A DNA stretch of 64,000 nucleotides from Parcubacteria group bacterium Gr01-1014_3. GTDB lineage: Bacteria > Patescibacteriota > Minisyncoccia > UBA6257 > WO2-44-18. Position numbers and translations under genes: made by a program. The DNA lies in NCBI GenBank assembly GCA_007376445.1, contig VMGF01000002.1, positions 103,928 through 167,927 of the forward strand, written 5' to 3'. Position 1 is the stretch's first letter; the number at the start of each line of letters is the position of its first letter. The notes below the pieces were generated by a model. The model saw only the letters and a program-made list of their open reading frames with translations. It was not told the origin of the DNA and searched no databases. Below, piece by piece: positions 4,086-62,830 of the stretch.

Positions 4086-4775
4086 ATGATTGAGAACGCG
4101 ACATTTGTGACATGGGTAGCCGGAGTTATGGCCGTTGGAGCGATTGGTTTTTGGATCTTGGTGGCTCTGGAGTTTATCTGCCTGATTACCTGTATGGCGA
4201 AGGACAAGGGTACCTGGGCTACGGTCTCGCTGATCGCCACCTGCGCCATTCTGAATTGGGTTTCGGGCATGCCTTTGCTTCACTGGGTCGCCGGACACTT
4301 TTGGCTCGCGCTGGCATATGCCGGGGGCTATTTCGTAGCCGGAACGGTCTGGTCAGTGGTCAAGTGGTATTCATATGTCACCGATCAACGCGAACGCTAC
4401 GACGAGATGAAGGATGCGTTTTTCAAAAACTATAACCTTAATGCCATTACCGCCGATAACCGCACTGCGTGGAAGCGCTGGCTGGATGATGGGCATGAAT
4501 CTGGCAAGGGATGTGGCAGGACCCGATGCAAGTGTGTTGGTCAGCCCCTTGCCCGCAATCATAAAGATGACGTGATCCGCTGGATGTCCTATTGGCCATT
4601 CAGTCTCCTCTGGACCGTGCTCTTCAACTGGGTGGTGAAGGTATGCCACAAGATTTATCAGCACATCCAGGCTTCACTCCAAAGAATCTCCGACTACAAG
4701 TTCAAGGATACGGCTTCCGACTTCACTGACGAACAGCCCGACGCGAAGGTAGCTGACAAGGATGCTAAGCCTTAA
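4086..4775 (+). CDS. membrane protein, hypothetical
   Basis: ATG at 4086 preceded by GGAGG (track start 4074 is a TTG); N-terminal TM helices, Cys-containing cytoplasmic tail. Confidence 0.5.
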   Translation: MIENATFVTWVAGVMAVGAIGFWILVALEFICLITCMAKDKGTWATVSLIATCAILNWVSGMPLLHWVAGHFWLALAYAGGYFVAGTVWSVVKWYSYVTDQRERYDEMKDAFFKNYNLNAITADNRTAWKRWLDDGHESGKGCGRTRCKCVGQPLARNHKDDVIRWMSYWPFSLLWTVLFNWVVKVCHKIYQHIQASLQRISDYKFKDTASDFTDEQPDAKVADKDAKP

Positions 4776-8001: not shown

Positions 8002-9450
8002 TTATATCTTATTTATTCTCTCATAATATTGCCCAATTCCCAAAATGTCGGCTTCGCGCCAATGCTTGCCGATCAGCTGAAAACCAATCGGTAATTTTCC
8101 TTCAACTTTCGCGGGAATTGATATTGCCGGCACCCCAGCCATATTCACAGGGATAGTAAAAATGTCTGAAAGATACATAGAAAGCGGGTCGCTGGTCTTC
8201 TCGCCAATCTTAAAAGCTGGAGTCGGAGAAACCGGGGTTAAAATCACGTCTACTTCCTTAAAGGCATTATCAAAATCTTGTCGCATCAGGCGGCGGACTT
8301 TTTGCGCCTTGGCGTAGTAGGCATCGTAATATCCGGAAGACAAAACGAAAGTTCCGAGAATCAAACGACGCTGAACCTCCGCGCCAAACCCATTACTCTT
8401 ATTTAATTTGTAGAGATCGATCAAATTCTTAGCATTTTTTCCGTGTTCACGAGTGCCATACCGGATGCCGTCGTAACGAGCCAGGTTGGAGCTGACCTCG
8501 GCCGGCATAATGATGTAGTAGCAAGAGATCGCGTGTTTCGTGTGCGGCAAGGTAATTTCTTTAAATTTGATTCCGAGAGTTTTCAAGCTGGCGATCACCT
8601 CATCCATCGCCTTCCGGACTTCCGGAGAAAGGCCGTCGATAAAATATTCGCTCGGAAGACCGATGGTCATATTTTTAATATCCTCGAGTTTTGGATTCAA
8701 AAGTTCGTCGCCGTAATTTACACGAACATTCGTGGAATCGTGCCGGTCTTTGGCCGCTAGGGCTTTAAAAAGAATCGCCGCGTCTTCCACGGTCTTAGTA
8801 ATCGGACCGATCTGATCTAAGCTCGAAGCCATAGCAATCGCGCCATGACGGGATACCGCGCCATAGGTCGGCTTCAACCCAACGACTCCGCAAAGACTGG
8901 CAGGCTGACGAATAGAACCGCCCGTGTCCGTACCGAGCGCGGCCAGGGCCATATTGTCGGCAACAGCAGCAGCCGAACCGCCCGAAGAACCTCCGGGAAC
9001 TCTTTCGAGATCATGCGGATTTTTCGTGATTTTAAACGCGGAATTTTCGGTGGAAGAACCCATCGCGAACTCATCCATATTAGTTTTGCCAAGAAAAACC
9101 GCTCCAGCTTTTTTCAGCTCCACAATTACGGCGGCGTCATAAGAGGCCGTGTAGTTTTCCAGCATCTTCGAGGCGGCGGTCGCCGGTAAACCTTTTATGA
9201 GAATATTGTCCTTAATCGCCATCGGCACTCCAGCCAACGCGCCCACCTCCTCTCCCCTCGCGATCGCCAAATCCGCCTGCTCGGCCTGCTGGTAGGCCTG
9301 ATCCTTGGCGGTACTCAAAAACGCTCCGATCTCCGGATCGCGAACTTCGATGTATTTTAAATAAGCCTGCGCGATCTCAAGCGCGGTAAATTCTTTTTTA
9401 ACTAACCCCTCATGAAAACTTTTAATTGTCAGGTTGTGTAGGCTGTGCAT
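8002..9450 (-). CDS. gatA: Asp-tRNA(Asn)/Glu-tRNA(Gln) amidotransferase subunit A
   Basis: amidase signature GKTNMDEFAMGSSTENSAF, GGSSGGSAAAVA; true start probably MHSLHN (ATG 9448-9450), since the track's 5' extension covers the palindromic intergenic region. Confidence 0.9.
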   Translation of the reverse strand: MHSLHNLTIKSFHEGLVKKEFTALEIAQAYLKYIEVRDPEIGAFLSTAKDQAYQQAEQADLAIARGEEVGALAGVPMAIKDNILIKGLPATAASKMLENYTASYDAAVIVELKKAGAVFLGKTNMDEFAMGSSTENSAFKITKNPHDLERVPGGSSGGSAAAVADNMALAALGTDTGGSIRQPASLCGVVGLKPTYGAVSRHGAIAMASSLDQIGPITKTVEDAAILFKALAAKDRHDSTNVRVNYGDELLNPKLEDIKNMTIGLPSEYFIDGLSPEVRKAMDEVIASLKTLGIKFKEITLPHTKHAISCYYIIMPAEVSSNLARYDGIRYGTREHGKNAKNLIDLYKLNKSNGFGAEVQRRLILGTFVLSSGYYDAYYAKAQKVRRLMRQDFDNAFKEVDVILTPVSPTPAFKIGEKTSDPLSMYLSDIFTIPVNMAGVPAISIPAKVEGKLPIGFQLIGKHWREADILGIGQYYERINKI

Positions 9451-9546: not shown

Positions 9547-9837
9547 TTACTCGAATACTGGCGGAACTTTAAGGTGCCGGTTTTGTTTATCCGGAAAAGC
9601 ATCGACGACTTCCTCCGCGCCAAGTCTTTCTCGAACCGCGTCTTCCCTGAAAATATTCTTCAGATCCGTGCCGCCGGTCATCGGCAAAACACCTTCGGTA
9701 TTTAAAGCCTGTAACTCCTGGAAATGGTTCAAAATATTCTGGAGATCGTGAAGTAATTTTTCTTCCTTTTTCTCATCGAGATGGATTCTGGCCAGATCCG
9801 CCAGGTGCTCAAGTGATTTTTTATTGATAGCGTCCAT
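9547..9837 (-). CDS. gatC: Asp-tRNA(Asn)/Glu-tRNA(Gln) amidotransferase subunit C
   Basis: 96 aa, GatC-like pattern, immediately upstream of gatA. Confidence 0.8.
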   Translation of the reverse strand: MDAINKKSLEHLADLARIHLDEKKEEKLLHDLQNILNHFQELQALNTEGVLPMTGGTDLKNIFREDAVRERLGAEEVVDAFPDKQNRHLKVPPVFE

Positions 9838-50608: not shown

Positions 50609-50642
50609 AACACTCCAACATTCTTAAGAATGTTGGAGTGTT
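50609..50642. repeat. palindromic repeat copy A (34 bp perfect: AACACTCCAACATTCTTAAGAATGTTGGAGTGTT)
   Basis: perfect palindrome centred on TTAA; identical core to copy C. Confidence 0.7.
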
Positions 50643-50654
50643 AATTGTACGCGT

Positions 50655-52589: not shown

Positions 52590-52635
52590 CCAATAAACAC
52601 TCTAACATTCTTAAGAATGTTAGAGTGTTTATTGG
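52590..52635. repeat. palindromic repeat copy B (46 bp perfect, variant with symmetric compensatory changes)
   Basis: ccaataaacactctaacattc-ttaa-gaatgttagagtgtttattgg. Confidence 0.7.
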
Positions 52636-52932: not shown

Positions 52933-52966
52933 AACACTCCAACATTCTTAAGAATGTTGGAGTGTT
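52933..52966. repeat. palindromic repeat copy C (34 bp, identical to copy A)
   Basis: seen directly. Confidence 0.7.
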
Positions 52967-52987
52967 TAAATGAATTTTCATTAAGCT

Positions 52988-53716
52988 TTAAAAAATGGAG
53001 GGGTAGCCGAGGTAGTACTTGAGGGTGTGGATCCAGTCTTCGTCTTGGCTGCCTTCGGCTTGTTTACTGCCCAGCATCCATTCCAGGTAGCCGCGGTCGG
53101 TTTGGGCCACGTCCGCGATCTTTTTGTCTTTGTGTTTTCCGAAGTTAAATACTCTGAATAATGATGGCCGGCCGGAAATATCAATCATCTTGGCGATGGC
53201 TTCGGGTTCGGAGAGGCCGGTATCCATCATTTTTTTGAGCAGACGGTTAAAAAGCGCGTGGAGGACTTTCACGTCCCCTTCCGCGTCGTGGGCGTTGGCG
53301 TCTTCCACATCCAGTTCCAAAAAATACCGTAAAAAAGATAAATTGTATTCCGGGATCTGATTCTCCGGGTCTAGTTCCCGGGCCACCCGGAAAGTGCAGA
53401 TCCGCTTCGGGATATTCATTCCCTCGGCTTCCAGGATCGCGCAGTCGAATTTCGCATTATGCGCCACCAGGATTCCCCCATCGGTCAGCTTGGCCTGCAA
53501 GTCTTTCATCGTCGCGCTGTCTTTGAATGGCTCCTTATCCGCCAGCATCTTGTTGGTGATATTGGTAATACTCATGGCCTTTATCGACACCGGAATTGGC
53601 GGCTTAAAATAACCTACTTTAACCCCATCGGAAGTTTTGTAGCAAATCTGACAGAGCCTGTCCTTGGCCACATCATTGCCAGTCGTTTCGGTATCTAAAA
53701 AAATAAGTTGGGGCAT
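52988..53716 (-). CDS. DEDDh 3'-5' exonuclease (DnaQ-like)
   Basis: Exo I FLDTETTG, Exo II HNAKFD, Exo III HDAEGDVKVL. Confidence 0.75.
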   Translation of the reverse strand: MPQLIFLDTETTGNDVAKDRLCQICYKTSDGVKVGYFKPPIPVSIKAMSITNITNKMLADKEPFKDSATMKDLQAKLTDGGILVAHNAKFDCAILEAEGMNIPKRICTFRVARELDPENQIPEYNLSFLRYFLELDVEDANAHDAEGDVKVLHALFNRLLKKMMDTGLSEPEAIAKMIDISGRPSLFRVFNFGKHKDKKIADVAQTDRGYLEWMLGSKQAEGSQDEDWIHTLKYYLGYPSIF

Positions 53717-53745
53717 GCGTTAATTAACTCATTCTACTATTTTCT

Positions 53746-54477
53746 CTATTTTTGCGAAACGCCAAGAGCGGAAATAATCTTATTCCCCATCTCTTCCGAC
53801 CAGTTCGTTATCGGCGAAAGTTCAAAAATGTGGTTTGTAAGTTTGCTAGCCTCGGTTATAAAAATTCCAGTTTCGCCGGTAATTTTCCCGATTTTTCCAC
53901 CCGCCAAAACCAACATTGCCATCACCCGAACATCTACCCCTTTAGTCTTAAAGAATTTAACCAAAAAATCTTTTTGTCGCGCAGTTTGCCAAACGGGCCT
54001 AGGAAGTTCAAAAAAGTTATACCATCCTCTCTTTTTATGCATGTGCCCTGCTTCAAAATCGAAAACACCAGAATAATTTTTAACCTCAAGAATAATTACG
54101 CCCTTGGGACCGAGTAAAAGCCCATCAATATCACCGATGCGCGTATTGGGGATTATATAATTCGGCACATAGATATAGCTGTCGTCCAAAGTTTCCTTTA
54201 ACATGTTAAGGATTTTTTCTTCGCCTTCCTTACCGGATTGAAATCCAGAAATTTTATCGAACAATGGATCTCCGTATTTTCGGCTAATTAAAATTATGAT
54301 TAAGCCGATAGTAGTAACTACCCACAAATATTTTGATTGACGTAAGGTTGGAATCACCAAGGTCAATGCAATCGTTACCATCACGAAGAGTATCACAAGC
54401 AAAACCGCTGTACCCCAAGGTGCATACTTGCGAAGATTTTTCGAGCTATAAGATTCTTGAAATTGGATAATTTTCAT
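53746..54477 (-). CDS. NERD-domain nuclease-related protein, membrane-anchored
   Basis: 2 TM then NERD pattern GDIDGLLLG...VIILEVKNYSG. Confidence 0.65.
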   Translation of the reverse strand: MKIIQFQESYSSKNLRKYAPWGTAVLLVILFVMVTIALTLVIPTLRQSKYLWVVTTIGLIIILISRKYGDPLFDKISGFQSGKEGEEKILNMLKETLDDSYIYVPNYIIPNTRIGDIDGLLLGPKGVIILEVKNYSGVFDFEAGHMHKKRGWYNFFELPRPVWQTARQKDFLVKFFKTKGVDVRVMAMLVLAGGKIGKITGETGIFITEASKLTNHIFELSPITNWSEEMGNKIISALGVSQK

Positions 54478-54483
54478 TTTTTA

Positions 54484-54519
54484 GTTGTTTCGGTATCTAA
54501 AAAAATAAGTTGGGGCATG
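54484..54519 (-). pseudogene. duplicated 5' fragment of the exonuclease gene (MPQLIFLDTETT*)
   Basis: ~33 nt identical to 53684-53716 incl. start codon, then stop. Confidence 0.5.
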
Positions 54520-54521
54520 GT

Positions 54522-55070
54522 TTATTTTGGGTTTGGTTGTTGCTTCTCTGTAAGTTTAATATATTCAACAAGCTTTGCGCCATCAATAAGCTCTATACCA
54601 ACCCTGTTGGCAAAAATTCTAGCCGTATGAATAAATCCATAAGTGAAATAACTGGTGGTGACGAAAATTCCTTTGGCGTCGGGATGATCAGCCTTGAGTG
54701 CCCCGAAGAACTCCCTCACCTGCTGTACGCGCACAGGGTGTTTAAGTCCGTATTTTTTGACCTGAATATAATAAATTTGACTATCCTTCTCTGCCTTCAC
54801 ATCAAATCCACCATCGGCCTGATGAACTCCGCCAATAACCTGAACATTCTCATATCCCATTTTTTTAAAAAGCATACCAATATAATCTTCAAATTCTTCT
54901 GGGTGCAATTTATGTATAAGGTCACCGAGGGTCTTTTGGCTGGCCAGCCACTTCTTATATCGCCTGTAGCGAAAATAGCCAACGATCAATCCAACTGCAA
55001 TGAACGGCACCAAGACATAAACAAAGGGTTTAATTGCGGCCAGCAAGACGGCCTGAGGAAGTTCGATCAT
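54522..55070 (-). CDS. Mrr-like restriction endonuclease domain protein, membrane-anchored
   Basis: TM then Mrr_cat pattern (FE..IG.LF..MGY, QADGGFD, YYIQVKKY, GIFVTTSYFT). Confidence 0.7.
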   Translation of the reverse strand: MIELPQAVLLAAIKPFVYVLVPFIAVGLIVGYFRYRRYKKWLASQKTLGDLIHKLHPEEFEDYIGMLFKKMGYENVQVIGGVHQADGGFDVKAEKDSQIYYIQVKKYGLKHPVRVQQVREFFGALKADHPDAKGIFVTTSYFTYGFIHTARIFANRVGIELIDGAKLVEYIKLTEKQQPNPK

Positions 55071-55092
55071 ATGTATATCTTACTATAAAATT

Positions 55093-55119
55093 TGCGCCCT
55101 CGGCAGGGATCGAACCCGC
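55093..55119 (-). pseudogene. tRNA 3' fragment (T arm GCGGG-TTCGATC-CCTGC + acceptor 3' strand CGAGGGC-G)
   Basis: no matching 5' half (GCCCTCG) upstream; parent tRNA not in window. Confidence 0.5.
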
Positions 55120-55159
55120 AAAATCGGGATAGCCAAACTTAAGCTACTGCCAAGAATTT

Positions 55160-55192
55160 TAAAACCGCCATTGGGCCCAATGGCGGTTTTAG
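55160..55192. terminator. bidirectional hairpin terminator (aaaaccgccattgggcccaatggcggtttt)
   Basis: perfect 12-bp stem. Confidence 0.5.
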
Positions 55193-55350
55193 GACGGAAT
55201 CAGTCGATGTATCACGAACAATCTTTTCTAAGACCCCTCTAAAGCAATCGCGTCAGATTTGTCAGAAAATTAAGATCGTCTGAGTAAGGAAATATTCTAA
55301 TTCTTGAGGTGAGTTGCTCGATTGGTACCTAGCTTTCATCCGACCCATAA

Positions 55351-55716
55351 TCACTTACCAAGTTTGTTGTATTTCGGTTTATATCTCGAAATTTCCGAAG
55401 CCTCAAAATCTTCAGCTTCTTGAGCGTTATCGCAAAGATGATAGCCGAAATGCGTTACGCCTGGCCAGTAATCACCTCGAAGATGGTCAAGCAGCCTACC
55501 TCGGATGCCGTCTTCGCTAACTGCCCTTCCGATGTAAAGAGGTATTAGGCCGCCATCCGTTGTTATCAAGCCGCAATAATAAACACCGATATGGTATGAA
55601 TTCAAATTACGTACGGTATCATCATTGTAGCTATAATGCCCACTATAATCGTTCACCATTATTGTTATTTCATCTCTTCTTATTATTCTCCGGCTCGACG
55701 AACCTTCGCGGCGCAT
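55351..55716 (-). CDS. GIY-YIG nuclease-domain protein
   Basis: GVYYCG...PLYIGRA...R..HL; likely start at the internal Met (MVNDYSG). Confidence 0.5.
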   Translation of the reverse strand: MRREGSSSRRIIRRDEITIMVNDYSGHYSYNDDTVRNLNSYHIGVYYCGLITTDGGLIPLYIGRAVSEDGIRGRLLDHLRGDYWPGVTHFGYHLCDNAQEAEDFEASEISRYKPKYNKLGK

Positions 55717-55865
55717 TAAGAGAAAATGCTCGGTGAACCAGCTGTGGTCACTCTATAATTTTCTAAAATAACGTGGGCTATGTCAAATAGTATTGTGAAT
55801 ATGATGTGTATGATCTGGGGATAATTTTTCCTTGACGGTTTGCCTACGCTTGGTAAATTTACTAT

Positions 55866-56498
55866 ATGCATAACCTACAAATCAAATTATTAAAAATCCT
55901 TGGGAAGATAGATTTTTCCAAAGAAAGCCTGCGGAGTATCGCCAAAATGGTGGGCGAAAAATATCCACAAAAGATAAAGCACCATATTACCCAGTTAGAG
56001 AAAAAGTATCTAATCTCCGTAGACTGGCAGAATAAGCGGATCACAAAGACCGATCCGAAAAAAATGAATAACTCTCCCCTACTCTCGATCCCGATCGTAG
56101 GTATGGCCAACTGCGGCCCAGCCCTGGTCTTTTCCGAGCAGAATATCGAAGGCTTCGTAAAAATTTCCAAAGTGATCCTCGGTCTCAAAGCGATTGGCGA
56201 CTTCTTCGCTATCCGCGCTTCCGGTAATTCGATGAATCGCGCGAAGGTGGCCGGCAAAAGCATTGAAGACGGCGATCTAGTCATAGTTGATCCTCGGCTC
56301 AAAGAACCCCGCAATGGCGACTATGTTCTTTCTATTATCGACAATGTCGGCAACATCAAAAAATTCTTCCGTGACGCCAAAAATAAGCTAGTCATGCTGC
56401 TCTCCGAATCCACCGAAGACTATCCTCCAATCTATATATCCCCTCGTGAAGACTACTTCGTAAGCGGAAAGGTCATCTATGTAATAAAAAAGAGCTAG
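55866..56498 (+). CDS. LexA-like S24 peptidase family repressor (N-terminal HTH + C-terminal S24)
   Basis: ASGNSMN Ser nucleophile region and downstream K; ~210 aa. Confidence 0.65.
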   Translation: MHNLQIKLLKILGKIDFSKESLRSIAKMVGEKYPQKIKHHITQLEKKYLISVDWQNKRITKTDPKKMNNSPLLSIPIVGMANCGPALVFSEQNIEGFVKISKVILGLKAIGDFFAIRASGNSMNRAKVAGKSIEDGDLVIVDPRLKEPRNGDYVLSIIDNVGNIKKFFRDAKNKLVMLLSESTEDYPPIYISPREDYFVSGKVIYVIKKS

Positions 56499-56521
56499 TT
56501 TTCGTTCAACCGATAACTATT

Positions 56522-57415
56522 TTGAAAAAAATGATCCAGCTTAATTTATTTAGCAGTAGGTCATTATTGTATAATGAGTACATGGAGCTGGATCAATATT
56601 TCACTAAGTCTGATGTAGCTAACCGGTGTCTTGAGCTTCTTTATGACAAGCTCCCAGGAATTCGAAATAAGTCCTTTATAGAGCCGTCAGCTGGCAATGG
56701 GTCTTTTTATTCAATTTTGCCAAAATCACGAAGAATTGGCTTAGATATTGCTCCCCAGTCGCCTGATATTAAAAGGGCAGATTTTTTGAGCTGGGAACCT
56801 AAAAGAAGCTCTCAGGATAAATATGTGATAGTCGGGAACCCTCCATTTGGACACCGCTCCAAGCTAGCTATAGATTTTTTTAATCATTCAGCAGATATCG
56901 CAAACACGATTGCTTTTATCGTACCTCGTCAATTCGAAAAATATTCTGTTCACTCAAAATTAAACAAAGACTTTAGACTTATCCACAGCCAAGAATTGGC
57001 CGAAAATTCATTCTACACTCCAAGTGGCAAGGATTTTGCCGTACGATGCGTTTTCCAAGTTTGGACTCGCAATGAAACAGAGCATGAAAACATGCGCATA
57101 CTTGAAGCGCCTCCAATCGTCCACCCCGACTTTGAGATGTACCAGTACAACAACACCCCAGATGCGCTAAAGTTTTTTGATAAAGACTGGGACTTTGCCG
57201 TTCCTAGGCAGGGCTATGAAGATTATACAAGGCGCGAAAAGCATAAAAATCGCTGCGAACTTAATAAGCAGTGGATAATGTTTAAGGTAAAAACGGAACA
57301 GGCTCGAGATAGACTGTTCAATTTTGACTTCTTTTCGCTTGCCAAGAAGAACACGATGGTTTATGGTTTCGGCAAAGCCGACGTCGTAATGGAATACAGC
57401 AAGCGTTATGATTAA
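56522..57415 (+). CDS. type II N6-adenine DNA methyltransferase
   Basis: motif I EPSAGNGSF, motif IV NPPF (VIVGNPPFG). Confidence 0.75.
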   Translation: MKKMIQLNLFSSRSLLYNEYMELDQYFTKSDVANRCLELLYDKLPGIRNKSFIEPSAGNGSFYSILPKSRRIGLDIAPQSPDIKRADFLSWEPKRSSQDKYVIVGNPPFGHRSKLAIDFFNHSADIANTIAFIVPRQFEKYSVHSKLNKDFRLIHSQELAENSFYTPSGKDFAVRCVFQVWTRNETEHENMRILEAPPIVHPDFEMYQYNNTPDALKFFDKDWDFAVPRQGYEDYTRREKHKNRCELNKQWIMFKVKTEQARDRLFNFDFFSLAKKNTMVYGFGKADVVMEYSKRYD

Positions 57416-58082
57416 CTCTTTATTTGAATCTATTCGAGATGACAAACAACTCTATCTAAATGCCCGCGAAGGAAGTGAATTTGAAGATAGGGTTGTTTAC
57501 TATTTAAAAAGCACCCTTGGCCTAACCCGCATCCTAAGACGGGACGTTGTGGCAAAAGACTGGGCGGCAATCAGTAGCCAGCTGGCTAATAAATTTGGCA
57601 CAGAATACCTTAACTTGCCCAATAAAAAGCTTAGAAAAACATTCATCTACCAACCACGCGGAAAACAAGAGTTTCCAGACATTATTGTTTTTAGTGATAA
57701 AAAAGTCATACCTATTGAGATAAAGTTCTCAGCTAATAGCCAGACGAAACCCATGTGGAATAGTAATGTTCCTAGGGCTAATGCTTTTTATATTTTTGGA
57801 TCATATGGGTTACAGGACATAACTTTCTTTTGTGGTGATAGCATCATTAGTCCAAAACACAGGGAAAGGCTGTATGGATTTTTTGATGATATCAAGAAGC
57901 TAGAGGATGAGATCAGAACTAAAATGCCTGAGCTGGATACAACGGACCGAGGATTTACTCCTTATATTAGAGCGGCATTCGATCAAAAAAAGCACAAGGA
58001 TACGGTAGTAACAAACTTCTTCACTCATCCGAAGCGGATTGAGGCAGAGAATTTAGCAATCGAAAAGCTGAAAGCCCTATAG
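57408..58082 (+). CDS. putative type II restriction endonuclease (PD-(D/E)xK)
   Basis: PDIIVF...IEIK motif; overlaps the MTase stop. Confidence 0.5.
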   Translation: MINSLFESIRDDKQLYLNAREGSEFEDRVVYYLKSTLGLTRILRRDVVAKDWAAISSQLANKFGTEYLNLPNKKLRKTFIYQPRGKQEFPDIIVFSDKKVIPIEIKFSANSQTKPMWNSNVPRANAFYIFGSYGLQDITFFCGDSIISPKHRERLYGFFDDIKKLEDEIRTKMPELDTTDRGFTPYIRAAFDQKKHKDTVVTNFFTHPKRIEAENLAIEKLKAL

Positions 58083-58087
58083 GGAGC

Positions 58088-58885
58088 TTATTCAACTCCT
58101 AATGCAGATTTGGCGCGAGCATAATTAGCTTTTCGATCATCTAATCCAGTAAGACCCCCATTAATTGCCTTCGTAAGTCTAACGAAATCTCCACTATCGG
58201 CGATAATATTACAGTTTCGGTTGTTCCAATACCAACCAGCCGAACGAAATGCATCTAATGGCTGCTCAAGCAATTCCGGAAATGCGATCAGATCGATACC
58301 CAGCCCAATACCGCACGCTTTATAATTACTACGGCCAGTTGTCTGGATAACGCCCCGACCTCTATATCGCCATCCGTCACCACTTGCTTCGTCCCCATTT
58401 CCCAAGCGATTACTATAAACGTGGTTTGCGATTTTCTCTGCCTGCTTAGCATAAACGCTGGCACTTTCTGACGTAAAACGACTTGGCCAGGTATTTACTA
58501 GGGCTTGAGCCGAATAATTCAGATTTTCTAAAAATGCGGAATACCCAGCCGATTCGTGAGAAGTTTGAGCAATGAAGGCAGCAATACGAATAGGAGTATT
58601 TATTTCGAACTCGGTTAATACTTTCAATAAATGTGGCAGATACTCGTTACATTTAGACTCCGCTAGGGTAGGAAGAATTTTTCCTAATTGTTCTGCGGTA
58701 ATAAGAACATCGACGCTTTCAAGAATACTCGGCGGTTCAGAACCTGGAATTTGAGGCGTAGATTTAATTGCCGTTTCGCTTATCGAATCATCCGGAGTTG
58801 ATATTGGGGTATTAATGGAAACCGAAGATTTCGGTTTAAGGTACTCCTTCAGAAAATTAATTATGTTTTGTATTATGTATTTCAT
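58088..58885 (-). CDS. GH19 family lysozyme/chitinase-like protein with N-terminal extension
   Basis: FIAQTSHESAGY, RYRGRGVIQTTGRSNY GH19 catalytic motifs. Confidence 0.7.
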   Translation of the reverse strand: MKYIIQNIINFLKEYLKPKSSVSINTPISTPDDSISETAIKSTPQIPGSEPPSILESVDVLITAEQLGKILPTLAESKCNEYLPHLLKVLTEFEINTPIRIAAFIAQTSHESAGYSAFLENLNYSAQALVNTWPSRFTSESASVYAKQAEKIANHVYSNRLGNGDEASGDGWRYRGRGVIQTTGRSNYKACGIGLGIDLIAFPELLEQPLDAFRSAGWYWNNRNCNIIADSGDFVRLTKAINGGLTGLDDRKANYARAKSALGVE

Positions 58886-59087
58886 TTGATTTTTTTATTA
58901 TTTTTAGATTTTTGGTACAAAAAACCCGGATAACTTTTCGCCGGGTTTGAAAAACATGTTTCAGTTTTTCTTTAATCAGAGATGATTCTAGCTTTTCGGT
59001 AATCCCCGATGATGACGAATTGTTATTTATTTTTTGTCAGCTACTGACGCTATATATAACGAGCCAGGGGAGACTTTATTTCATTAT

Positions 59088-59135
59088 CTTCTCCAATTCC
59101 TCTAAAATGCGGACCATGGCGAAGGTGGGGAGTTT
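59088..59135. repeat. cassette-boundary direct repeat copy 1 (~48 bp)
   Basis: 40/40 identical to 60528-60567 then divergent tail gggagttt. Confidence 0.7.
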
Positions 59136-59139
59136 GGGA

Positions 59140-59400
59140 CTAGTGTTTATAAACACTTTGTCGATGGCCGATACTCAAAACGAGAATTATTAATCGGTTT
59201 TTTTCGATCCGGTAAATTATCCTGTATGGCCAAATATGAATGCTAAACTTACCGGCGAGTTCGCCAGTAAGTGGCTGCCCCAGAAATGGATCTTGTTCCA
59301 AGTCCTTAAGCGCTTTTAATACGCCGTCCTTTTTAGCCCTAGGAAGCTTTTGCAGTCTTTTTCTGGCTGATTTTGCGATTATTACGTGATACCTGGACAT
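59140..59400 (-). CDS. relE: RelE/ParE-family toxin
   Basis: 86 aa, MSRYHVIIAKSARKRLQKL... typical RelE/StbE pattern. Confidence 0.7.
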   Translation of the reverse strand: MSRYHVIIAKSARKRLQKLPRAKKDGVLKALKDLEQDPFLGQPLTGELAGKFSIHIWPYRIIYRIEKNRLIILVLSIGHRQSVYKH

Positions 59401-59671
59401 ATCCTTCTTCTTTTAATATTTCATCAAGAGTTGAGTATTGGCCCTTCGCGTATTCGGACTCCCCCTTCTTAATGTCTTTCATTATCAACGGATTATTTAA
59501 TATATCAACAGTCTCGATTAAAGACTGATATTCATCCACAGACAAAACCACCGCTTTGGGACGGCCCTTGTCAGTTAACGTATAGTGCCTGTTGGGCCTT
59601 TGTACGTCTTCCGCAATATCAAAAATTTTCCTGCGCGCCTCTGAAATAGGCAATGTAGTGCTTTTACTCAT
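59339..59671 (-). CDS. Phd/YefM-family antitoxin
   Basis: start at MSKSTTLPISEARRKIFDI (the track's 5' extension is repeat-derived); overlaps the relE start. Confidence 0.65.
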   Translation of the reverse strand: MSKSTTLPISEARRKIFDIAEDVQRPNRHYTLTDKGRPKAVVLSVDEYQSLIETVDILNNPLIMKDIKKGESEYAKGQYSTLDEILKEEGYVQVSRNNRKISQKKTAKAS

Positions 59672-59726
59672 ATGTACATAATAACGTACACCTAGCCGAT
59701 AGGTCAAGTTAGTTATCCACCGCAAG

Positions 59727-59774
59727 TTTCTCCAATTCCTCCAAAATGCGGACCGTGGCGAAGGTGGGGAGTTT
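59727..59774. repeat. cassette-boundary direct repeat copy 2
   Basis: 45/48 identical to copy 1. Confidence 0.7.
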
Positions 59775-59933
59775 CGGTGAGACTTTTGAGTCAAATTAGC
59801 CCTGGGGATAACTATTGACTTTATGTGCCTGTCTTTGATACAATCTAGACAAGATCACCACGAAAAAGGCCCCATAAGGACGAGACCTTATAGGGGCCTT
59901 TTTCTTTTTTAGGGCCGTAAGCATGTATTCAAG

Positions 59934-60164
59934 TTATCTTGAAACAATCTTTCTAATTCCAAATTGGTTAAATTTCTCAATGATTCCTTTTACTAATTCT
60001 CTTTTTAGTCTTGAGTGTCTAGGAATTGTGGTAACGAATCGGCCGTGAACATCCTCTACTTTGTAATGCTTCCTACCAGACTTAACGACAAAACCGCATT
60101 TTTTTGCGGTTTTGATTAGTTCGTCTGAAGAACAATCGGAAGCATTAAGACTTAATTCCTTCAT
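59934..60164 (-). CDS. hicA: HicA-family toxin (mRNA interferase)
   Basis: KKCGFVVKSGRKHYKV...GRFVTTIPRHS. Confidence 0.7.
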   Translation of the reverse strand: MKELSLNASDCSSDELIKTAKKCGFVVKSGRKHYKVEDVHGRFVTTIPRHSRLKRELVKGIIEKFNQFGIRKIVSR

Positions 60165-60492
60165 AAGACGAAATCTTCATTTCTAATTCTCGGCTTCTCC
60201 TCGGGGCTGGGAAAGCGTCTAATTCGTATGCAACACTGACCGGCGGTAAATATGTTGGCATGTACTGAAAAAATTTTTGAGGAACTTCAAGATATGTTTT
60301 TACACAATCATTAACCATCTCTACTAGTTCGGACAGCGTATCCCCCTGAGTAACGCACCCTGGAAAAGAAAGTATTTCAGCAAAAAACCCTCCGTCTTCA
60401 GAGCGGCCAACTTTTACGTTTATTCTCGTAGAAAATTCACTCCTTAATTCCTTAATTCTTTTTATGTCTTTTTTGGTAATCTTTCTCTCCAT
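60145..60492 (-). CDS. hicB: HicB-family antitoxin
   Basis: FFAEILSFPGCVTQGDTLSE (RNase H-like HicB N-domain). Confidence 0.65.
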   Translation of the reverse strand: MERKITKKDIKRIKELRSEFSTRINVKVGRSEDGGFFAEILSFPGCVTQGDTLSELVEMVNDCVKTYLEVPQKFFQYMPTYLPPVSVAYELDAFPAPRRSRELEMKISSYEGIKS

Positions 60493-60518
60493 GTTTATAT
60501 ATTATAGGACGTAGGCCT

Positions 60519-62591
60519 TTAAATCAACTTCTCCAATTCCTCTAAAATGCGGACCATGGCGAAGGTGTCGAGTTTGCAGTATTCGAGCATGTCTTTGCGG
60601 AGTTGGGCTTTATCGATTGTAAGATCGCCACGGGGCGTTGCCCCTCGCGATGACGGGTCTCCGGGCGCAATGACGGAGGAATCGGGGTCGTCCTGCGGGG
60701 CAGGACGGCCGATCAACTTGAGCCAACTGGAGGAGGCGGTGCCGCCTTCTTGGATGGCCAGCTTTTTGTAGGAAAGTTCCGGGGCGAGGACGGGCTGAAC
60801 TTTTTTGATCGAGGTACTGCCCTTAAAATCTTTGTGGACGTAGTGCTGTTTGGTGAAGATGTCCATGAGGTCGTAGGTTCTGGAATTTATTGACTCAATA
60901 AATTCCTTGGCTTCGGGGACGCGCGCGGCGATCTCGGTGTTTCTCGAGCACTCGAAGCGCTTGCTCCAGACGATCAGACTCCCCTTCGGCCCGATCTGCG
61001 ACTGCAGGGATTCCACAAATGGTCGGCTGGGGTCGGTAGCCTGGTCGTGTAAAAATTCAAAGTGCTTCAACTTCGCGCCGAGCTCATCTAAAACATAAAG
61101 CGAGTATTGAAACGGGATCTGCTGATATGGCGAAAACCCGTCGAACATCGGAATGGCGGCCGGGAAAGTTTCATAGTCCACGAAATAAAGAGGATATTTT
61201 AACTGCTCCAACTCTTCTTGTATTTTTATTTTATCTACCAAAATCTGATTCAGCACGAAAGCCCGGATCTGATTTTTCTGCGTGTCGTTGAGTTCCATCT
61301 CCTCCGGAACTTCGTGAATATGAAATTTATTGCCGTCGATCAGCGATTCCAGTTTTTTCTTACTTAAGCCGATGCGGTTAATATCGTGGACGCTGTATTT
61401 CGGCACCTGGGGATTGGAGTGATGAAAAGTCGCGCAGTGGTTAGACCGACCCTTGTATATGCAGGTACAAGACCCGGGCGGTTCTTTATCGCTTGAAAGA
61501 TACTTCAAGGCCTGCTCCATCTCTAAAGCCACTGGTAGGGCGAGTTCATTGATCTCGCGGGTGATATTGTCGCTTTTGAATAGATTAACGAGGTCGAGCG
61601 CGCCCTGGCGGACATATTCCGAGTTGAGGTGCATTAGATTTATCTCATTAATCTTGAGGCCGCACTTTCTTAATAAATTGACCTGGAAAGCGAGATCATA
61701 ATAATGGCGCTTCTTGTCGGTGTCGTTGGAGGCTTTGATTTCGGTGATATTCCAGGCGTCCGCCGATTTGTCGTAGGTCAGCACATCCACCGCGGCGAGA
61801 AAGTTGTCTTTTAGAAATACCGGCTGGAAAATGACTTCTTGTTTTTTAGCGATCAGCTCGGCGGTAAGTTTTTGCGCGGCCTCATCCCGGCCTTCAATCA
61901 GCACACCGCTGGGCCAAATTTTGCGCGCCTCTAACTCCACCTCATTACCGGTTTCGATGATGTGCTTTTCAAAATCGGAAAGCTCCGATTTGTAATAAAT
62001 ATCGGGCTGATGAATTTTGTGCCAGACATTCTTCGGGCACTCCCGGAAAAGGATGTAGTCAGTTTTGGATATAAACATATGGATATTTTTATATTTTCTC
62101 TGTAATCTATCTATCAATTCTCTACAAAATAAGACCGTATTATCAATATTATCATTATAAGCATCTTCGACGGGTGTTTTCTCAAGAGGATACTTGCCAG
62201 ATTCTATAGCCCTTCGAATTTTTTTTAAATAATTTTCAATATCATCATCAATATCTGCAAAACAACGTTTGTAAAAATTTATTAAATTGTGCCTTGTAAA
62301 TGCCTGGACGAATCCAGCGCCTGTTGAATCGAGTGCAATCATTCCCTCTTGTAAGGCAATTGCCTTGAGATAGCATTCTATAGCAAACCCGTAGTTCATA
62401 ATGATACGACTGCTATACCTTATGTTATTTTTATATTTTTCATATAATAAATCGGCGATTTCCTCATTGATCTTGGCGTGGGAGATCCAAAGGAAGGGGT
62501 CTTGAGCTGATTCTTTCCATGCCTCGGCATCGTAAATATCACGAGAAAAATCCTCCGGAGGTTTATCCCAAATTAAATCATCTTCATGCAT
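60519..62591 (-). CDS. large multidomain nuclease-like protein (PD-(D/E)xK + Cys cluster, DUF2779-like; C-terminal DnaQ-like DxE)
   Basis: VDVLTYD...ITEIKAS (D..E.K), CTCIYKGRSNHC, C-terminal LYFVDYETF. Confidence 0.4.
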   Translation of the reverse strand: MHEDDLIWDKPPEDFSRDIYDAEAWKESAQDPFLWISHAKINEEIADLLYEKYKNNIRYSSRIIMNYGFAIECYLKAIALQEGMIALDSTGAGFVQAFTRHNLINFYKRCFADIDDDIENYLKKIRRAIESGKYPLEKTPVEDAYNDNIDNTVLFCRELIDRLQRKYKNIHMFISKTDYILFRECPKNVWHKIHQPDIYYKSELSDFEKHIIETGNEVELEARKIWPSGVLIEGRDEAAQKLTAELIAKKQEVIFQPVFLKDNFLAAVDVLTYDKSADAWNITEIKASNDTDKKRHYYDLAFQVNLLRKCGLKINEINLMHLNSEYVRQGALDLVNLFKSDNITREINELALPVALEMEQALKYLSSDKEPPGSCTCIYKGRSNHCATFHHSNPQVPKYSVHDINRIGLSKKKLESLIDGNKFHIHEVPEEMELNDTQKNQIRAFVLNQILVDKIKIQEELEQLKYPLYFVDYETFPAAIPMFDGFSPYQQIPFQYSLYVLDELGAKLKHFEFLHDQATDPSRPFVESLQSQIGPKGSLIVWSKRFECSRNTEIAARVPEAKEFIESINSRTYDLMDIFTKQHYVHKDFKGSTSIKKVQPVLAPELSYKKLAIQEGGTASSSWLKLIGRPAPQDDPDSSVIAPGDPSSRGATPRGDLTIDKAQLRKDMLEYCKLDTFAMVRILEELEKLI
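60528..60575. repeat. cassette-boundary direct repeat copy 3 = native 3' coding end of the 60519..62591 gene
   Basis: encodes KLDTFAMVRILEELEKLI*. Confidence 0.7.
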
Positions 62592-62686
62592 GTTGGTAGG
62601 CCAATAATACCATAAATTAAGTTATCCAGAGGGTATCGACCGACAGCGCTTTAATTGTTATATTGAACTTATAAATGGCCTCGGCC

Positions 62687-62704
62687 CTCTCCCGCGAAAG
62701 CGGG
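62687..62704. other. GNRA-capped hairpin ctcccgc-gaaa-gcgggag
   Basis: perfect 7-bp stem; no U-tract. Confidence 0.3.
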
Positions 62705-62757
62705 AGTTACTACATTAAAAGATTTGCATTTTAAAAAATTTGTGATAAGATAACGCC

Positions 62758-62830
62758 GGGGTCGTAACTCAACTGGCAGAGTAGCGGTTTTTTAAGCCGA
62801 AGGTTGTGGGTTCAAGTCCCACCGGCCCCA
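62758..62830 (+). tRNA. tRNA-Lys (TTT)
   Basis: GGGGTCG acceptor, D arm ACTC/GAGT, anticodon loop TTTTTAA, T arm GTGGG-TTCAAGT-CCCAC; promoter-like TTGCAT-16-TAAGAT upstream. Confidence 0.8.

What the first reader, a model, noticed from the sequence alone, without database searches (positions are those of the whole stretch)
59088..60575. Integron-like tandem cassette array: TA modules separated by direct repeats copied from the 3' end of a nuclease gene
The last ~48 bp of the 60519..62591 gene (cttctccaattcctctaaaatgcggaccatggcgaaggtg-tcgagttt, encoding ...KLDTFAMVRILEELEKLI*) recur twice downstream in the same orientation. One copy lies at 59727-59774, between HicBA and Phd/RelE. The other lies at 59088-59135, after RelE.

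The downstream copies share a variant tail (gggagttt) that differs from the native gene end. This is expected if each insertion regenerated a hybrid att site. The architecture is [gene 3' end = attB] - cassette - repeat - cassette - repeat. It resembles serial site-specific integration or integron-type cassette capture, but with direct repeats rather than attC inverted repeats, and with no intI in view.

The track's long 5' extension of the antitoxin ORF (MTQKSHRNSPP...) is just the repeat read in another frame.
Basis: seen in the sequence. Interest (0 to 1): 0.75.

Follow-up and report, generated by a model that had tools for sequence, protein, structure and literature searches.

The report
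Toxin-antitoxin cassettes between duplicated gene ends
Two small toxin-antitoxin gene pairs sit in a row behind a nuclease gene of an uncultured groundwater bacterium, each followed by a copy of that gene's last ~48 bases; this is a real insertion scar resembling the 'insertion with long target duplication' known for restriction-modification genes, not an integron, and it shows how such selfish gene pairs can enter a genome without carrying a transposase or integrase.

Summary
Three direct copies of a 48-50 nt segment lie at 59088-59136, 59728-59777 and 60528-60576. They are the 3' coding end of a DUF2779 gene and two displaced copies of it. They bracket a HicB-HicA operon and a Phd-ParE operon. 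Two independent assemblies reproduce the downstream part of the array.

The integron reading is not supported. The copies have no attC-like fold, none of 59 window ORFs scanned is a recombinase, and the cassettes appear to carry their own promoters.

The array lies in a hypervariable interval between DUF2779 and a DnaQ-like exonuclease gene. These two genes are adjacent in many relatives.

- A sister lineage has only Phd-ParE.
- Other lineages have different cargo behind the same gene end, with repeats of different length (about 74 and 87 nt).
- The same architecture occurs at other gene ends: the DnaQ 5' end around NERD (in this window) and around Doc/AbrB, and the greA 5' end around a HicBA homologue.
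- Sharp identity breaks at the repeat edge indicate homologous recombination.

Best fit: serial insertion with long target duplication, known for restriction-modification genes, spread by recombination in the conserved gene-end core. The mechanism is inferred. A shared GAC-to-CCC change in both displaced copies keeps a cassette-borne recombination site possible.

The parts
60519..62591 (-). DUF2779 (RNase H-like / Cas4-like nuclease family) gene. The core protein starts at 62078. Residues 1-171 (62079-62591) are an AT-rich N-terminal extension.
   Evidence: Pfam DUF2779 E=6.9e-42. NCBIfam UU173 family partial match and a weak PADLOC Cas4 match. Homologues at 64-82% identity in Patescibacteria.
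60528..60576 (-). Repeat copy R1: the functional 3' end of the gene (KLDTFAMVRILEELEK). It is followed by 60519-60527, TTG ATT TAA, which is supplied by the hicBA upstream region.
   Evidence: The 12-mer AAGTTGATTTAA is shared with the L035 hicB upstream region.
59775..60527 (-). Cassette 1 (about 753 nt): a -35-like TTGATT at 60522-60527 and an AT-rich -10 region (read by eye), HicB 60145-60492, HicA 59934-60164, an intrinsic terminator at 59870-59895, and about 95 nt of spacer.
   Evidence: Pfam. HicB homologues. Terminator scan. Only the segment from about 13 nt upstream of hicB to the hicA stop is homologous to HicBA modules elsewhere (74-80% nt).
59728..59777 (-). Repeat copy R2: a displaced gene end with head AAACTCCCC (the Asp codon has become Pro), two core mismatches and its own tail (LAVDN*).
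59137..59727 (-). Cassette 2 (about 590 nt): promoter-like TTGACC-18-TATTAT at 59707-59678, Phd 59339-59671, ParE/RelE 59140-59400.
   Evidence: Pfam. Promoter scan. The same cassette sits alone behind DUF2779 in L027-L030.
59088..59136 (-). Repeat copy R3: a displaced gene end with head AAACTCCCC and a core identical to R1. It is followed by a native-like tail, IMK*, at 59076-59087.
   Evidence: The same block is joined to three different native-like tails in the window, L028 and L029.
53717..60518 (.). Accessory interval (6.8 kb) between DUF2779 and the DnaQ-like gene. It holds the two TA cassettes, a GH19 hydrolase (58088-58885), a type II methyltransferase with a 224-aa partner (56522-58082), an S24/LexA-like gene (55866-56498), a 121-aa ORF, an Mrr-like nuclease (54522-55070) and NERD (53746-54477).
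   Evidence: Synteny: the two flanking genes are 55-200 nt apart in L003, L004, L005, L008, L012 and L021. Annotations. GC is about 0.40 here against about 0.47 elsewhere.
54483..54526 (-). Duplicated 5' end of the DnaQ-like gene (ATGCCCCAACTTATTTTTTTAGATACCGAAAC.ACT, MPQLIFLDTETT) lying upstream of the NERD gene. This is the second, independent example of the architecture in this window.
   Evidence: Self-BLAST found a 45-nt pair at 93% identity. Sequences and translation.
53681..53725 (-). The matching copy: the true start of the DnaQ-like exonuclease gene (52988-53716).
   Evidence: Pfam RNase_T plus ExoX-like_C.

Best explanation
The array is a scar of two successive duplicative insertions of self-contained type II toxin-antitoxin operons into the last codons of a DUF2779 nuclease gene. 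It lies inside a strain-variable interval between DUF2779 and a DnaQ-like exonuclease gene in a Parcubacteria (Patescibacteria) genome. The 48-nt direct repeats are copies of the target, that is, of the gene's own 3' coding end. They are not a dedicated recombination site of the attC kind. This matches the phenomenon described for restriction-modification genes as 'insertion with long target duplication'.

Proposed course; steps 1, 2 and 4 are shown and steps 3 and 5 are inferred.
1. The interval is a hotspot whose content differs between lineages.
2. Each cassette is bounded by a gene-end copy. The proximal copy stays in frame with the gene and takes a new stop codon from the cassette. The distal copy keeps the earlier tail.
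3. Incoming DNA from related strains carries a cassette next to a copy of this conserved segment. It recombines with the chromosomal gene end by a single crossover within the 39-nt identical core, or two single-cassette alleles undergo an unequal crossover. No cassette-encoded enzyme is involved. The Asp codon (GAC) therefore stays with the gene and the incoming head (CCC) ends up on the distal copy.
4. The cassettes are then exchanged among strains by homologous recombination. The breakpoints fall at the edge of the repeat, because that is the last conserved sequence before variable DNA.
5. Loss of a cassette by repeat-to-repeat recombination is counter-selected by post-segregational killing. 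This would explain why toxin-antitoxin pairs are common among cassettes still flanked by intact repeats.
For: Repeats and gene content are confirmed.

Empty sites and polymorphism:
- DUF2779 abuts the DnaQ-like gene in L003, L004, L005, L008, L012 and L021.
- L027-L030 carry Phd-ParE only, between the gene end and R3.

Long and variable duplications at the same gene end in other lineages:
- L032: a 316-aa cargo, with a 74-nt repeat running past the stop codon.
- L006: a MazG-like gene plus a 674-aa gene, followed by an 87-nt remnant.

The same architecture at other targets:
- NERD between 45-nt copies of the DnaQ 5' end in this window.
- A Doc/AbrB TA module between 61-nt copies of the DnaQ 5' end in L031.
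- A HicBA homologue (78% nt) between 65-110-nt copies of the greA 5' end in L034, with a decayed version in L035.
- Three copies of an S24 gene's 3' end in L003.

Homologous-recombination signatures:
- Window against L028: 0 mismatches over at least 480 nt from mid-phd to the last base of R3. In contrast, DUF2779 is 87.5% identical and there are 11-14 mismatches per 50 nt beyond R3.
- L028 against L029: 1 difference in 1707 nt, then divergence starting at the first base after R3.

No cis or nearby mobility function:
- No recombinase or transposase domain in 59 window ORFs scanned.
- No attC-like fold.
- No match in plasmid, phage or viral-contig collections.

Precedent and its criteria: Furuta, Abe and Kobayashi 2010, PMC2853133.
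Against: - R2 and R3 have identical limits and share the double substitution GAC to CCC, although their cargo is unrelated. A plain in-situ target duplication predicts GAC in all copies at birth. Either each cassette arrived with its own copy of the site, which is also what a site-specific system predicts, or a very short gene-conversion tract must be assumed.
- The origin of the first 'cassette plus gene-end copy' molecule is not explained.
- A 39-48 nt homology is close to the lower limit usually given for RecA-dependent recombination (my knowledge, not tested here).
- recA, competence genes and the rest of the genome were not examined.
- No circular or empty-site reads were examined.
- The mechanism of the restriction-modification precedent is itself unknown.
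- Not every TA insertion in this hotspot has a duplication: L042 HigBA, L031 Phd-ParE and L044-46 HicBA have none.
Confidence: 0.5

Rival explanations
1. A dedicated site-specific cassette system works in trans, integron-like in logic. Each cassette carries a ~48-nt recombination site that mimics the DUF2779 3' end (head AAACTCCCC). A recombinase encoded elsewhere in the genome inserts and excises cassettes at the gene end, producing hybrid sites.
For: The repeat limits and the CCC head are identical in two cassettes with unrelated cargo. The core variants form a mosaic (R1 = R3, R2 differs) of the kind expected from crossovers inside a core. All continuations diverge at the same nucleotide after GGAGAA. 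Cassette number is polymorphic.
Against: No recombinase was found in the 64 kb window. The site has no inverted repeat or fold. Insertions behind the same gene end in L032 and L006 have other limits and no CCC head. Equivalent duplications exist at greA, DnaQ and S24 gene ends, so a different specificity would be needed for each. The site pattern occurs in only one contig of the metagenome collection and in no viral contig.
Confidence: 0.2
2. Tandem accretion followed by decay. Two larger integrative elements (prophage, ICE or plasmid-like), each with an integrase targeting the DUF2779 3' end, integrated one after the other. Deletions then removed everything except the addictive TA modules and the att repeats, leaving CIME-like remnants.
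For: Direct repeats of a gene's 3' end are the classic mark of integrase-mediated insertion. An element-derived att arm would explain the shared CCC head. TA modules resist loss. The interval is rich in defence and mobile-type genes.
Against: The cassettes are extremely compact, with no pseudogene debris. The hicBA promoter region abuts R1 directly, and the parE stop lies 4 nt from R3. The NERD cassette starts 5 nt before its ATG. No integrase remnant was seen in ORF lists or domain scans. There is no similarity to phages or plasmids. The many parallel cases at other gene ends would each need their own decayed element.
Confidence: 0.15
3. In-situ amplification. A single ancestral cassette flanked by a target duplication was amplified by unequal crossing-over between its repeats, and one unit's cargo was later replaced.
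For: Repeat-flanked units are known to amplify (stated for restriction-modification units in PMC2853133). This would explain the identical repeat limits and the shared CCC head.
Against: The two cassettes share no sequence outside the repeats. Replacing one cargo precisely between two 48-nt repeats needs the same kind of event that the model was meant to avoid.
Confidence: 0.1
4. Artefact or chance: an assembly duplication, or a common intergenic repeat unrelated to cassette boundaries.
For: Short repeats can mislead assemblers. The short contig L002 starts and ends inside repeat copies.
Against: None is expected by chance. Independent assemblies are identical to the window across R2 and R3, and their k-mer sizes, as suggested by the contig names (k119/k141), are longer than the repeat. 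There are only three copies in 64 kb, all at cassette borders.
Confidence: 0.02

Closest known systems
Insertion with long target duplication of restriction-modification gene complexes (Nobusato et al. 2000, Gene 259:99; Furuta, Abe and Kobayashi 2010, NAR 38:2428, PMC2853133)
   Same: A small 'selfish' addiction-type gene unit, with no transposase or integrase, is inserted relative to an empty site in a related genome. It is flanked by direct repeats longer than 30 bp (45 to about 420 bp in that paper) that are a duplication of the target. The repeat often overlaps the 3' end of a neighbouring gene. The mechanism is unknown.
   Different: The cargo here is type II toxin-antitoxin operons (plus NERD and other genes), not restriction-modification genes. 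The host is a Patescibacteria lineage. The same 48-nt target was used twice, giving a tandem array. The displaced copies share a change absent from the target. In the papers I could search, 'long target duplication' co-occurs with 'toxin-antitoxin' in 7 papers; in the two I opened, one uses it for restriction-modification systems only and the other only in its reference list.
Integron cassette arrays, including TA cassettes of chromosomal superintegrons
   Same: A series of small, mostly single-operon cassettes in one orientation, separated by a recurring sequence. TA cassettes are common and thought to stabilise the array. Cassettes carry no recombinase.
   Different: There is no IntI or attI in view. 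The recurring sequence is a direct copy of a coding gene end, without the imperfect inverted repeats or folded structure of attC. The cassettes appear to carry their own promoters. Repeat length and target differ from case to case.
Tandem accretion of integrative elements and cis-mobilisable remnants (CIMEs), for example ICESt1/ICESt3 at the 3' end of fda in Streptococcus thermophilus (from my own knowledge, not checked in the library)
   Same: The arrangement is the 3' end of a protein-coding gene acting as an attachment site, then an element, a repeat, a second element and another repeat. The internal units lack recombination genes.
   Different: No integrase-bearing partner element is seen in any of the loci examined. 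The units are under 1 kb and consist only of a TA operon. The repeat limits are not constant across lineages.
Minimal mobile elements of Neisseria, and integration hotspots between conserved core genes (from my own knowledge, not checked in the library)
   Same: A fixed interval between two conserved genes (here DUF2779 and the DnaQ-like exonuclease) holds different whole-gene cargo in different strains. The cargo is exchanged by homologous recombination in the flanks.
   Different: That model needs no target duplication. Here 45-110-nt gene-end duplications bracket individual cassettes inside the interval.

Membership tests
Integron | IntI tyrosine recombinase gene with an adjacent attI at the head of the array | tested here: not met
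   No recombinase, integrase or transposase Pfam domain in 59 ORFs of at least 110 aa across the 64 kb window. The rest of the genome was not available.
Integron | attC sites: imperfect inverted repeats that fold as single-stranded hairpins at each cassette end | tested here: not met
   The three copies are direct repeats of coding sequence. DNA folds of both strands give z-scores from -0.30 to +0.75 against shuffles. No inverted repeat was reported at these sites.
Integron | Mostly promoterless cassettes expressed from a common promoter | tested here: inconclusive
   A sigma-70-like site (10 of 12) lies upstream of phd at 59707-59678. A TTGATT/AT-rich -10 upstream of hicB was seen by eye only. 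hicA has its own terminator. These are consensus matches, not expression data.
Insertion with long target duplication (criteria of Furuta et al. 2010) | The insert is absent from an otherwise collinear site in a related genome, where the repeated sequence occurs once | tested here: met
   For HicBA, L027-L030 lack it. For the whole interval, L003, L004, L008, L012 and L021 have a single gene end followed by the DnaQ-like gene.
Insertion with long target duplication (criteria of Furuta et al. 2010) | Flanking direct repeat longer than 30 bp that aligns with the target | tested here: met
   Repeats of 47-50 nt at 91-96% identity. Other cases are 45, 61, 65, 74 and 87 nt.
Insertion with long target duplication (criteria of Furuta et al. 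2010) | Insert shorter than 20 kb without mobility genes | tested here: met
   The inserts are about 753 and 590 nt and hold only TA genes.
Insertion with long target duplication (criteria of Furuta et al. 2010) | The insert contains restriction and modification genes | tested here: not met
   The cargo is HicBA and Phd-ParE. This is a criterion of that survey's scope, not of the mechanism.
Integrase-type integrative element or CIME | A constant attachment core, with the same crossover position in independent insertions | tested here: inconclusive
   The limits are identical for the two cassettes in this lineage. They differ in L032 and L006, and in part in L028, where the repeat runs on towards the stop codon.
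Integrase-type integrative element or CIME | An integrase in the element or in an adjacent partner element | tested here: not met
   None in the window or in the flanks of the related loci inspected.
Type II toxin-antitoxin modules | Adjacent small antitoxin and toxin genes with family domains | tested here: met
   PhdYeFM E=1.6e-14 with ParE_toxin E=1.3e-12. HicA_toxin E=2.3e-7 above its cutoff. The HicB match is weak (E=1e-3) but an 81%-identical homologue is named HicB by NCBI. Activity was not tested.
Hotspot / minimal-mobile-element type locus | Conserved flanking genes with lineage-specific cargo, and recombination tracts ending in the flanks | tested here: met
   Cargo ranges from 0 to 7.5 kb between DUF2779 and the DnaQ-like gene across about 12 lineages. 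Identity mosaics are shown.

The most novel reading that the evidence does not exclude
Patescibacteria may possess a recombinase-in-trans gene-cassette system in which the recombination site is a short direct mimic of a conserved gene's end (AAACTCCCC...GGAGAA) rather than a folded attC. Unrelated TA and defence cassettes would each carry this site and would be stacked behind the DUF2779 gene. That would be an integron analogue with a different site logic.
Probability: 0.15. Interest if true: 0.8.

Novelty: new variant of a known kind. Interest (0 to 1): 0.5.

Why it matters
How chromosomal toxin-antitoxin modules move when they are not riding on a plasmid, phage or transposon is poorly understood. 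Reviews say only that they 'establish independently or as part of genomic islands' (PMC7167474).

This locus, with its relatives, gives a set of natural before-and-after states with nucleotide-level junctions:
- four different TA families (HicBA, Phd-ParE, Doc/AbrB and a second HicBA context);
- several non-TA genes;
- each inserted a few codons inside the end of a conserved gene, with a 45-110-nt duplication.

This extends a phenomenon so far documented for restriction-modification systems to TA modules and to the reduced genomes of candidate-phyla-radiation bacteria. Few mobile elements are known in those genomes, and DNA uptake is thought to be important there. The data also give concrete sequences (the 48-mer and the hybrid junctions) with which circular intermediates, empty sites and recombination dependence can be tested.

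For annotation, it explains spurious 5' extensions and tiny gene-end pseudo-ORFs in such islands.

Tried and rejected
- **attC-like folding.** Both strands of all three copies fold no better than shuffles.
- **Recombinase hunt.** Pfam, NCBIfam and PADLOC scans of the window ORFs found none.
- **Public collections searched for the repeat core.** One metagenome contig matched (L027, the one-cassette allele). No viral contig matched.
- **Plasmid and phage collections searched with the whole array.** No match.
- **Exact-protein look-ups.** The 690-aa protein is not on record. HicA and ParE occur only in the two known contexts. The ParE homologue search gave only itself and the L031 copy.
- **oriC idea.** A DnaA-box-like GTGGATAAC recurs near cassette borders and the GC-skew minimum falls here. 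However, boxes with at most 1 mismatch are spread over the whole window and do not cluster at the array. Dropped.
- **L035 as a circularly permuted, re-inserted HicBA cassette.** It is better read as a decayed version of the L034 greA insertion, with the remnants in the same order.
- **The conserved element after R3 as a general cassette-boundary element.** A covariance model finds no copy beyond the five used to build it in 322 kb.
- **The stretch after R3 as the native 3' UTR of DUF2779.** Withdrawn, because the same element follows an S24 gene in L003 and L005.
- **Rfam.** Only tRNA-Lys was found.

Full report
**1.

The window contains exactly three copies of a 48-50-nt segment, all in the same orientation, at 59088-59136, 59728-59777 and 60528-60576. 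The 39-nt core matches with 0, 2 and 0 mismatches. No match is expected in shuffled sequence.

All genes here are on the minus strand. The copy at 60528-60576 encodes the last residues (KLDTFAMVRILEELEK) of a 690-aa ORF with a DUF2779 domain (E=6.9e-42). Reading downstream in gene orientation, the order is:
- HicB (60145-60492) and HicA (59934-60164);
- repeat copy 2;
- Phd (59339-59671) and ParE/RelE (59140-59400);
- repeat copy 3.

Each displaced copy stays in the gene's frame and ends with its own stop codon (...EKLAVDN* and ...EKIMK*). Both carry AAACTCCCC where the gene has AAACTCGAC, so a conserved Asp codon has become Pro.

Two contigs from other samples are 100% identical to the window across R2, Phd-ParE and R3, and one of them starts inside R1 (L001, L002). 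The array is therefore not an assembly artefact.

The long 5' extension of the antitoxin ORF is copy 2 read in another frame. A promoter-like site lies inside it.

**2. Organism and setting**

The HicB and ParE proteins are on record from 'Parcubacteria group bacterium Gr01-1014_3', on a 242.7-kb contig. The closest DUF2779 genes all come from Patescibacteria MAGs.

In six relatives (L003, L004, L005, L008, L012, L021) the DUF2779 gene is followed within 55-200 nt by a DnaQ/ExoX-like exonuclease gene. In the window that gene is at 52988-53716 (Pfam RNase_T plus ExoX-like_C). The 6.8 kb between them (53717-60518; GC about 0.40 against about 0.47) is therefore accessory. It holds:
- the two TA operons;
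- a GH19 hydrolase;
- a type II methyltransferase (PADLOC E=1.8e-55) with a 224-aa partner;
- a LexA-like S24 protein;
- an Mrr-type nuclease;
- a NERD protein.

Other lineages have other cargo in the same interval:
- a single ORF on the opposite strand (L007, L016);
- a Gp49/HTH TA pair (L042);
- Phd-ParE, an MmeI-type system and a Doc/AbrB pair (L031);
- 7.5 kb of defence-like genes (L006).

**3. Cassette polymorphism and hybrid junctions**

A sister lineage appears in four public datasets (L027-L030). Its DUF2779 is 87.5% identical at the nucleotide level. It has the gene end, then Phd-ParE, then R3, and no HicBA.

In the window, the nine bases after R1 (TTG ATT TAA) provide the gene's last two codons and its stop. 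They also read as a -35-like hexamer in front of hicB. The same 12-mer, AAGTTGATTTAA, precedes a hicB homologue in an unrelated locus, L035.

The identical Phd-ParE-R3 block is joined to three different native-looking gene tails directly after GGAGAA:
- GATAATGAAATAA in the window;
- AATAGTTGCTGCGGCAAAATAA in L028;
- GATAGTAGCAGTGACGAAGTAA in L029.

**4. It is not an integron**

- The repeat has no inverted symmetry and folds no better than shuffled sequence on either strand.
- None of 59 window ORFs of at least 110 aa has a recombinase, integrase or transposase domain.
- The cassettes appear to have their own promoters, and hicBA has its own terminator.
- The array has no relative in the plasmid, phage or viral-contig collections.

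**5. The architecture is general and the repeat is a target duplication**

Behind the same gene end, other lineages show displaced 3' ends with different limits:
- L032: a 316-aa cargo between 74-nt copies that run past the stop codon into the next gene's start.
- L006: a MazG-like gene and a 674-aa gene, followed by an 87-nt remnant.

At other targets:
- In this window, the NERD gene lies between 45-nt copies of the first 12 codons of the DnaQ-like gene (53681-53725 and 54483-54526).
- In L031, a Doc/AbrB TA pair on the opposite strand lies between 61-nt copies of the same gene's 5' end.
- In L034, a HicBA module 78% identical in DNA to the window's lies between 65-110-nt copies of the greA 5' end. 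L035 holds a decayed version of the same insertion.
- L003 has three copies of an S24 gene's 3' end, with Phd-ParE and other genes between them.

Not every insertion has a duplication. L042 HigBA, L031 Phd-ParE, L036 HicBA and L044-46 HicBA have none.

Long (over 30 bp) and variable duplications around small units that lack mobility genes, judged against an empty site, are the criteria used for 'insertion with long target duplication' of restriction-modification systems. There the repeats are 45 to about 420 bp, often overlap a gene's 3' end, and the mechanism is unknown (PMC2853133). In the papers I could search, the term co-occurs with 'toxin-antitoxin' in 7 papers. In the two I opened, one applies it to restriction-modification systems only and the other has it only in its reference list.

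**6. Mechanism**

Two comparisons show homologous recombination ending at the repeat.
- Window against L028: no difference over at least 480 nt from mid-phd to the last base of R3. Divergence is about 12% in DUF2779 and 11-14 mismatches per 50 nt after R3.
- L028 against L029: one base differs in 1707 nt, then the two diverge from the first base after R3.

The conserved gene-end core is the last stretch of homology before variable DNA, so crossovers pile up there. This gives a sharp, site-like edge without a site-specific enzyme.

I therefore favour the following, which is inferred and not shown. Cassettes enter and are reshuffled by recombination between the chromosomal gene end and a copy of the same segment that travels with the cassette. 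This could be a single crossover with a circular or tandem donor, or an unequal crossover between single-cassette alleles. TA addiction would counter-select repeat-mediated loss.

The main difficulty is that R2 and R3 share both their limits and the GAC-to-CCC change despite unrelated cargo, while the core variants group R1 with R3. This fits a cassette-borne copy of the site, which is also what a trans-acting site-specific system or decayed integrase-type elements would predict. I keep those as rivals, at 0.2 and 0.15. A 7-mer, AAACTCC, directly after the stop codon in L028-L030 looks like the head of a deleted R2-type copy and is unexplained.

**7. Verdict**

Its interpretation as integron-type capture at an attB is only partly right. 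The feature is best filed as a new variant of a known but mechanistically unsolved kind of gene mobility, insertion with long target duplication. Here the cargo is toxin-antitoxin operons, stacked twice at the same 48-nt target, inside a DUF2779/DnaQ hotspot of a Parcubacteria genome.

Interest is moderate (0.5). The kind of event is not new, but the set of junctions makes the question of how TA modules move on their own directly testable.

Noticed in passing
window 53681-53725 and 54483-54526 (NERD gene 53746-54477 between them): The first 12 codons of the DnaQ-like exonuclease gene (MPQLIFLDTETT) are duplicated upstream of the NERD gene. This is a second, independent 'cassette between duplicated gene ends' in the same window. 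L031 has a Doc/AbrB TA pair between 61-nt copies of the same gene start (8856-8916 and 9753-9813).
   Followed up: yes
window 58905-59023 (-); L028 1798-1925; L003 13585-13716 and 17270-17401; L005 150-269 (-): A conserved ~120-nt structured element lies directly after R3. It has two hairpins, one with an invariant CUGAAAC loop, plus an intrinsic terminator. 8 of 23 predicted pairs show compensatory changes. There is no Rfam match. A covariance model finds no further copy in 322 kb. In L003 and L005 it follows an S24/LexA-like gene instead. It may be a small RNA or a leader of the downstream gene.
   Followed up: partly
window 50609-50647, 52596-52634, 52933-52968; also L004 3614/3954, L006 444/11861/12177, L034 (several copies): A perfect 34-nt palindrome, AACACTCCAACATTCTTAAGAATGTTGGAGTGTT, occurs three times. 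The copies bracket the Pif1-like helicase plus a 119-aa ORF, and the ArsR-like HTH gene. The same element brackets the HTH gene in other lineages. It could be an operator or a bidirectional terminator.
   Followed up: partly
window 62079-62591 (-): The AT-rich 171-aa N-terminal extension of the DUF2779 ORF appears to correspond to a free-standing 171-aa gene just upstream of DUF2779 in L039-L041 (judged by size and position only; no sequence comparison was run). It is fused in the window and in L033 (48% identity). No family match was found.
   Followed up: partly
window 62655-62715, next to tRNA-Lys 62758-62830; L031 about 4540-4600 (inverted): A hairpin-rich segment (ggcctcggcc; ctcccgcgaaagcgggag) has an inverted homologue downstream of DUF2779 in L031, with compensatory-looking stem changes. 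This was seen by eye only. There is no Rfam match.
   Followed up: no
L005 2635-2719 and 4292-4375: In this relative the whole DUF2779 gene is itself bracketed by 85-nt direct repeats (89% identical) containing CTGATGACAGATAA motifs.
   Followed up: no
L003 13524-13705, 15251-15320, 17168-17390 (same in L039): There are three direct copies of the 3' end of an S24/LexA-like gene, with a 109-aa ORF fused to the S24 tail. Phd-ParE, an HTH gene and a 232-aa gene lie between them. Here the intact gene is the last unit of the array, not the first.
   Followed up: partly
window 56522-58082 (+) and 54522-55070 (-): The island carries a type II DNA methyltransferase (PADLOC E=1.8e-55) overlapping a 224-aa ORF with no family match, which is a candidate restriction enzyme. 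It also carries an Mrr-type (type IV-like) nuclease. No flanking duplication was detected around them.
   Followed up: partly
window about 59000-60000: The cumulative GC skew reaches its minimum at the array. DnaA-box-like 9-mers are more frequent than expected over the whole window (31 against 12.8 expected) but do not cluster here.
   Followed up: partly
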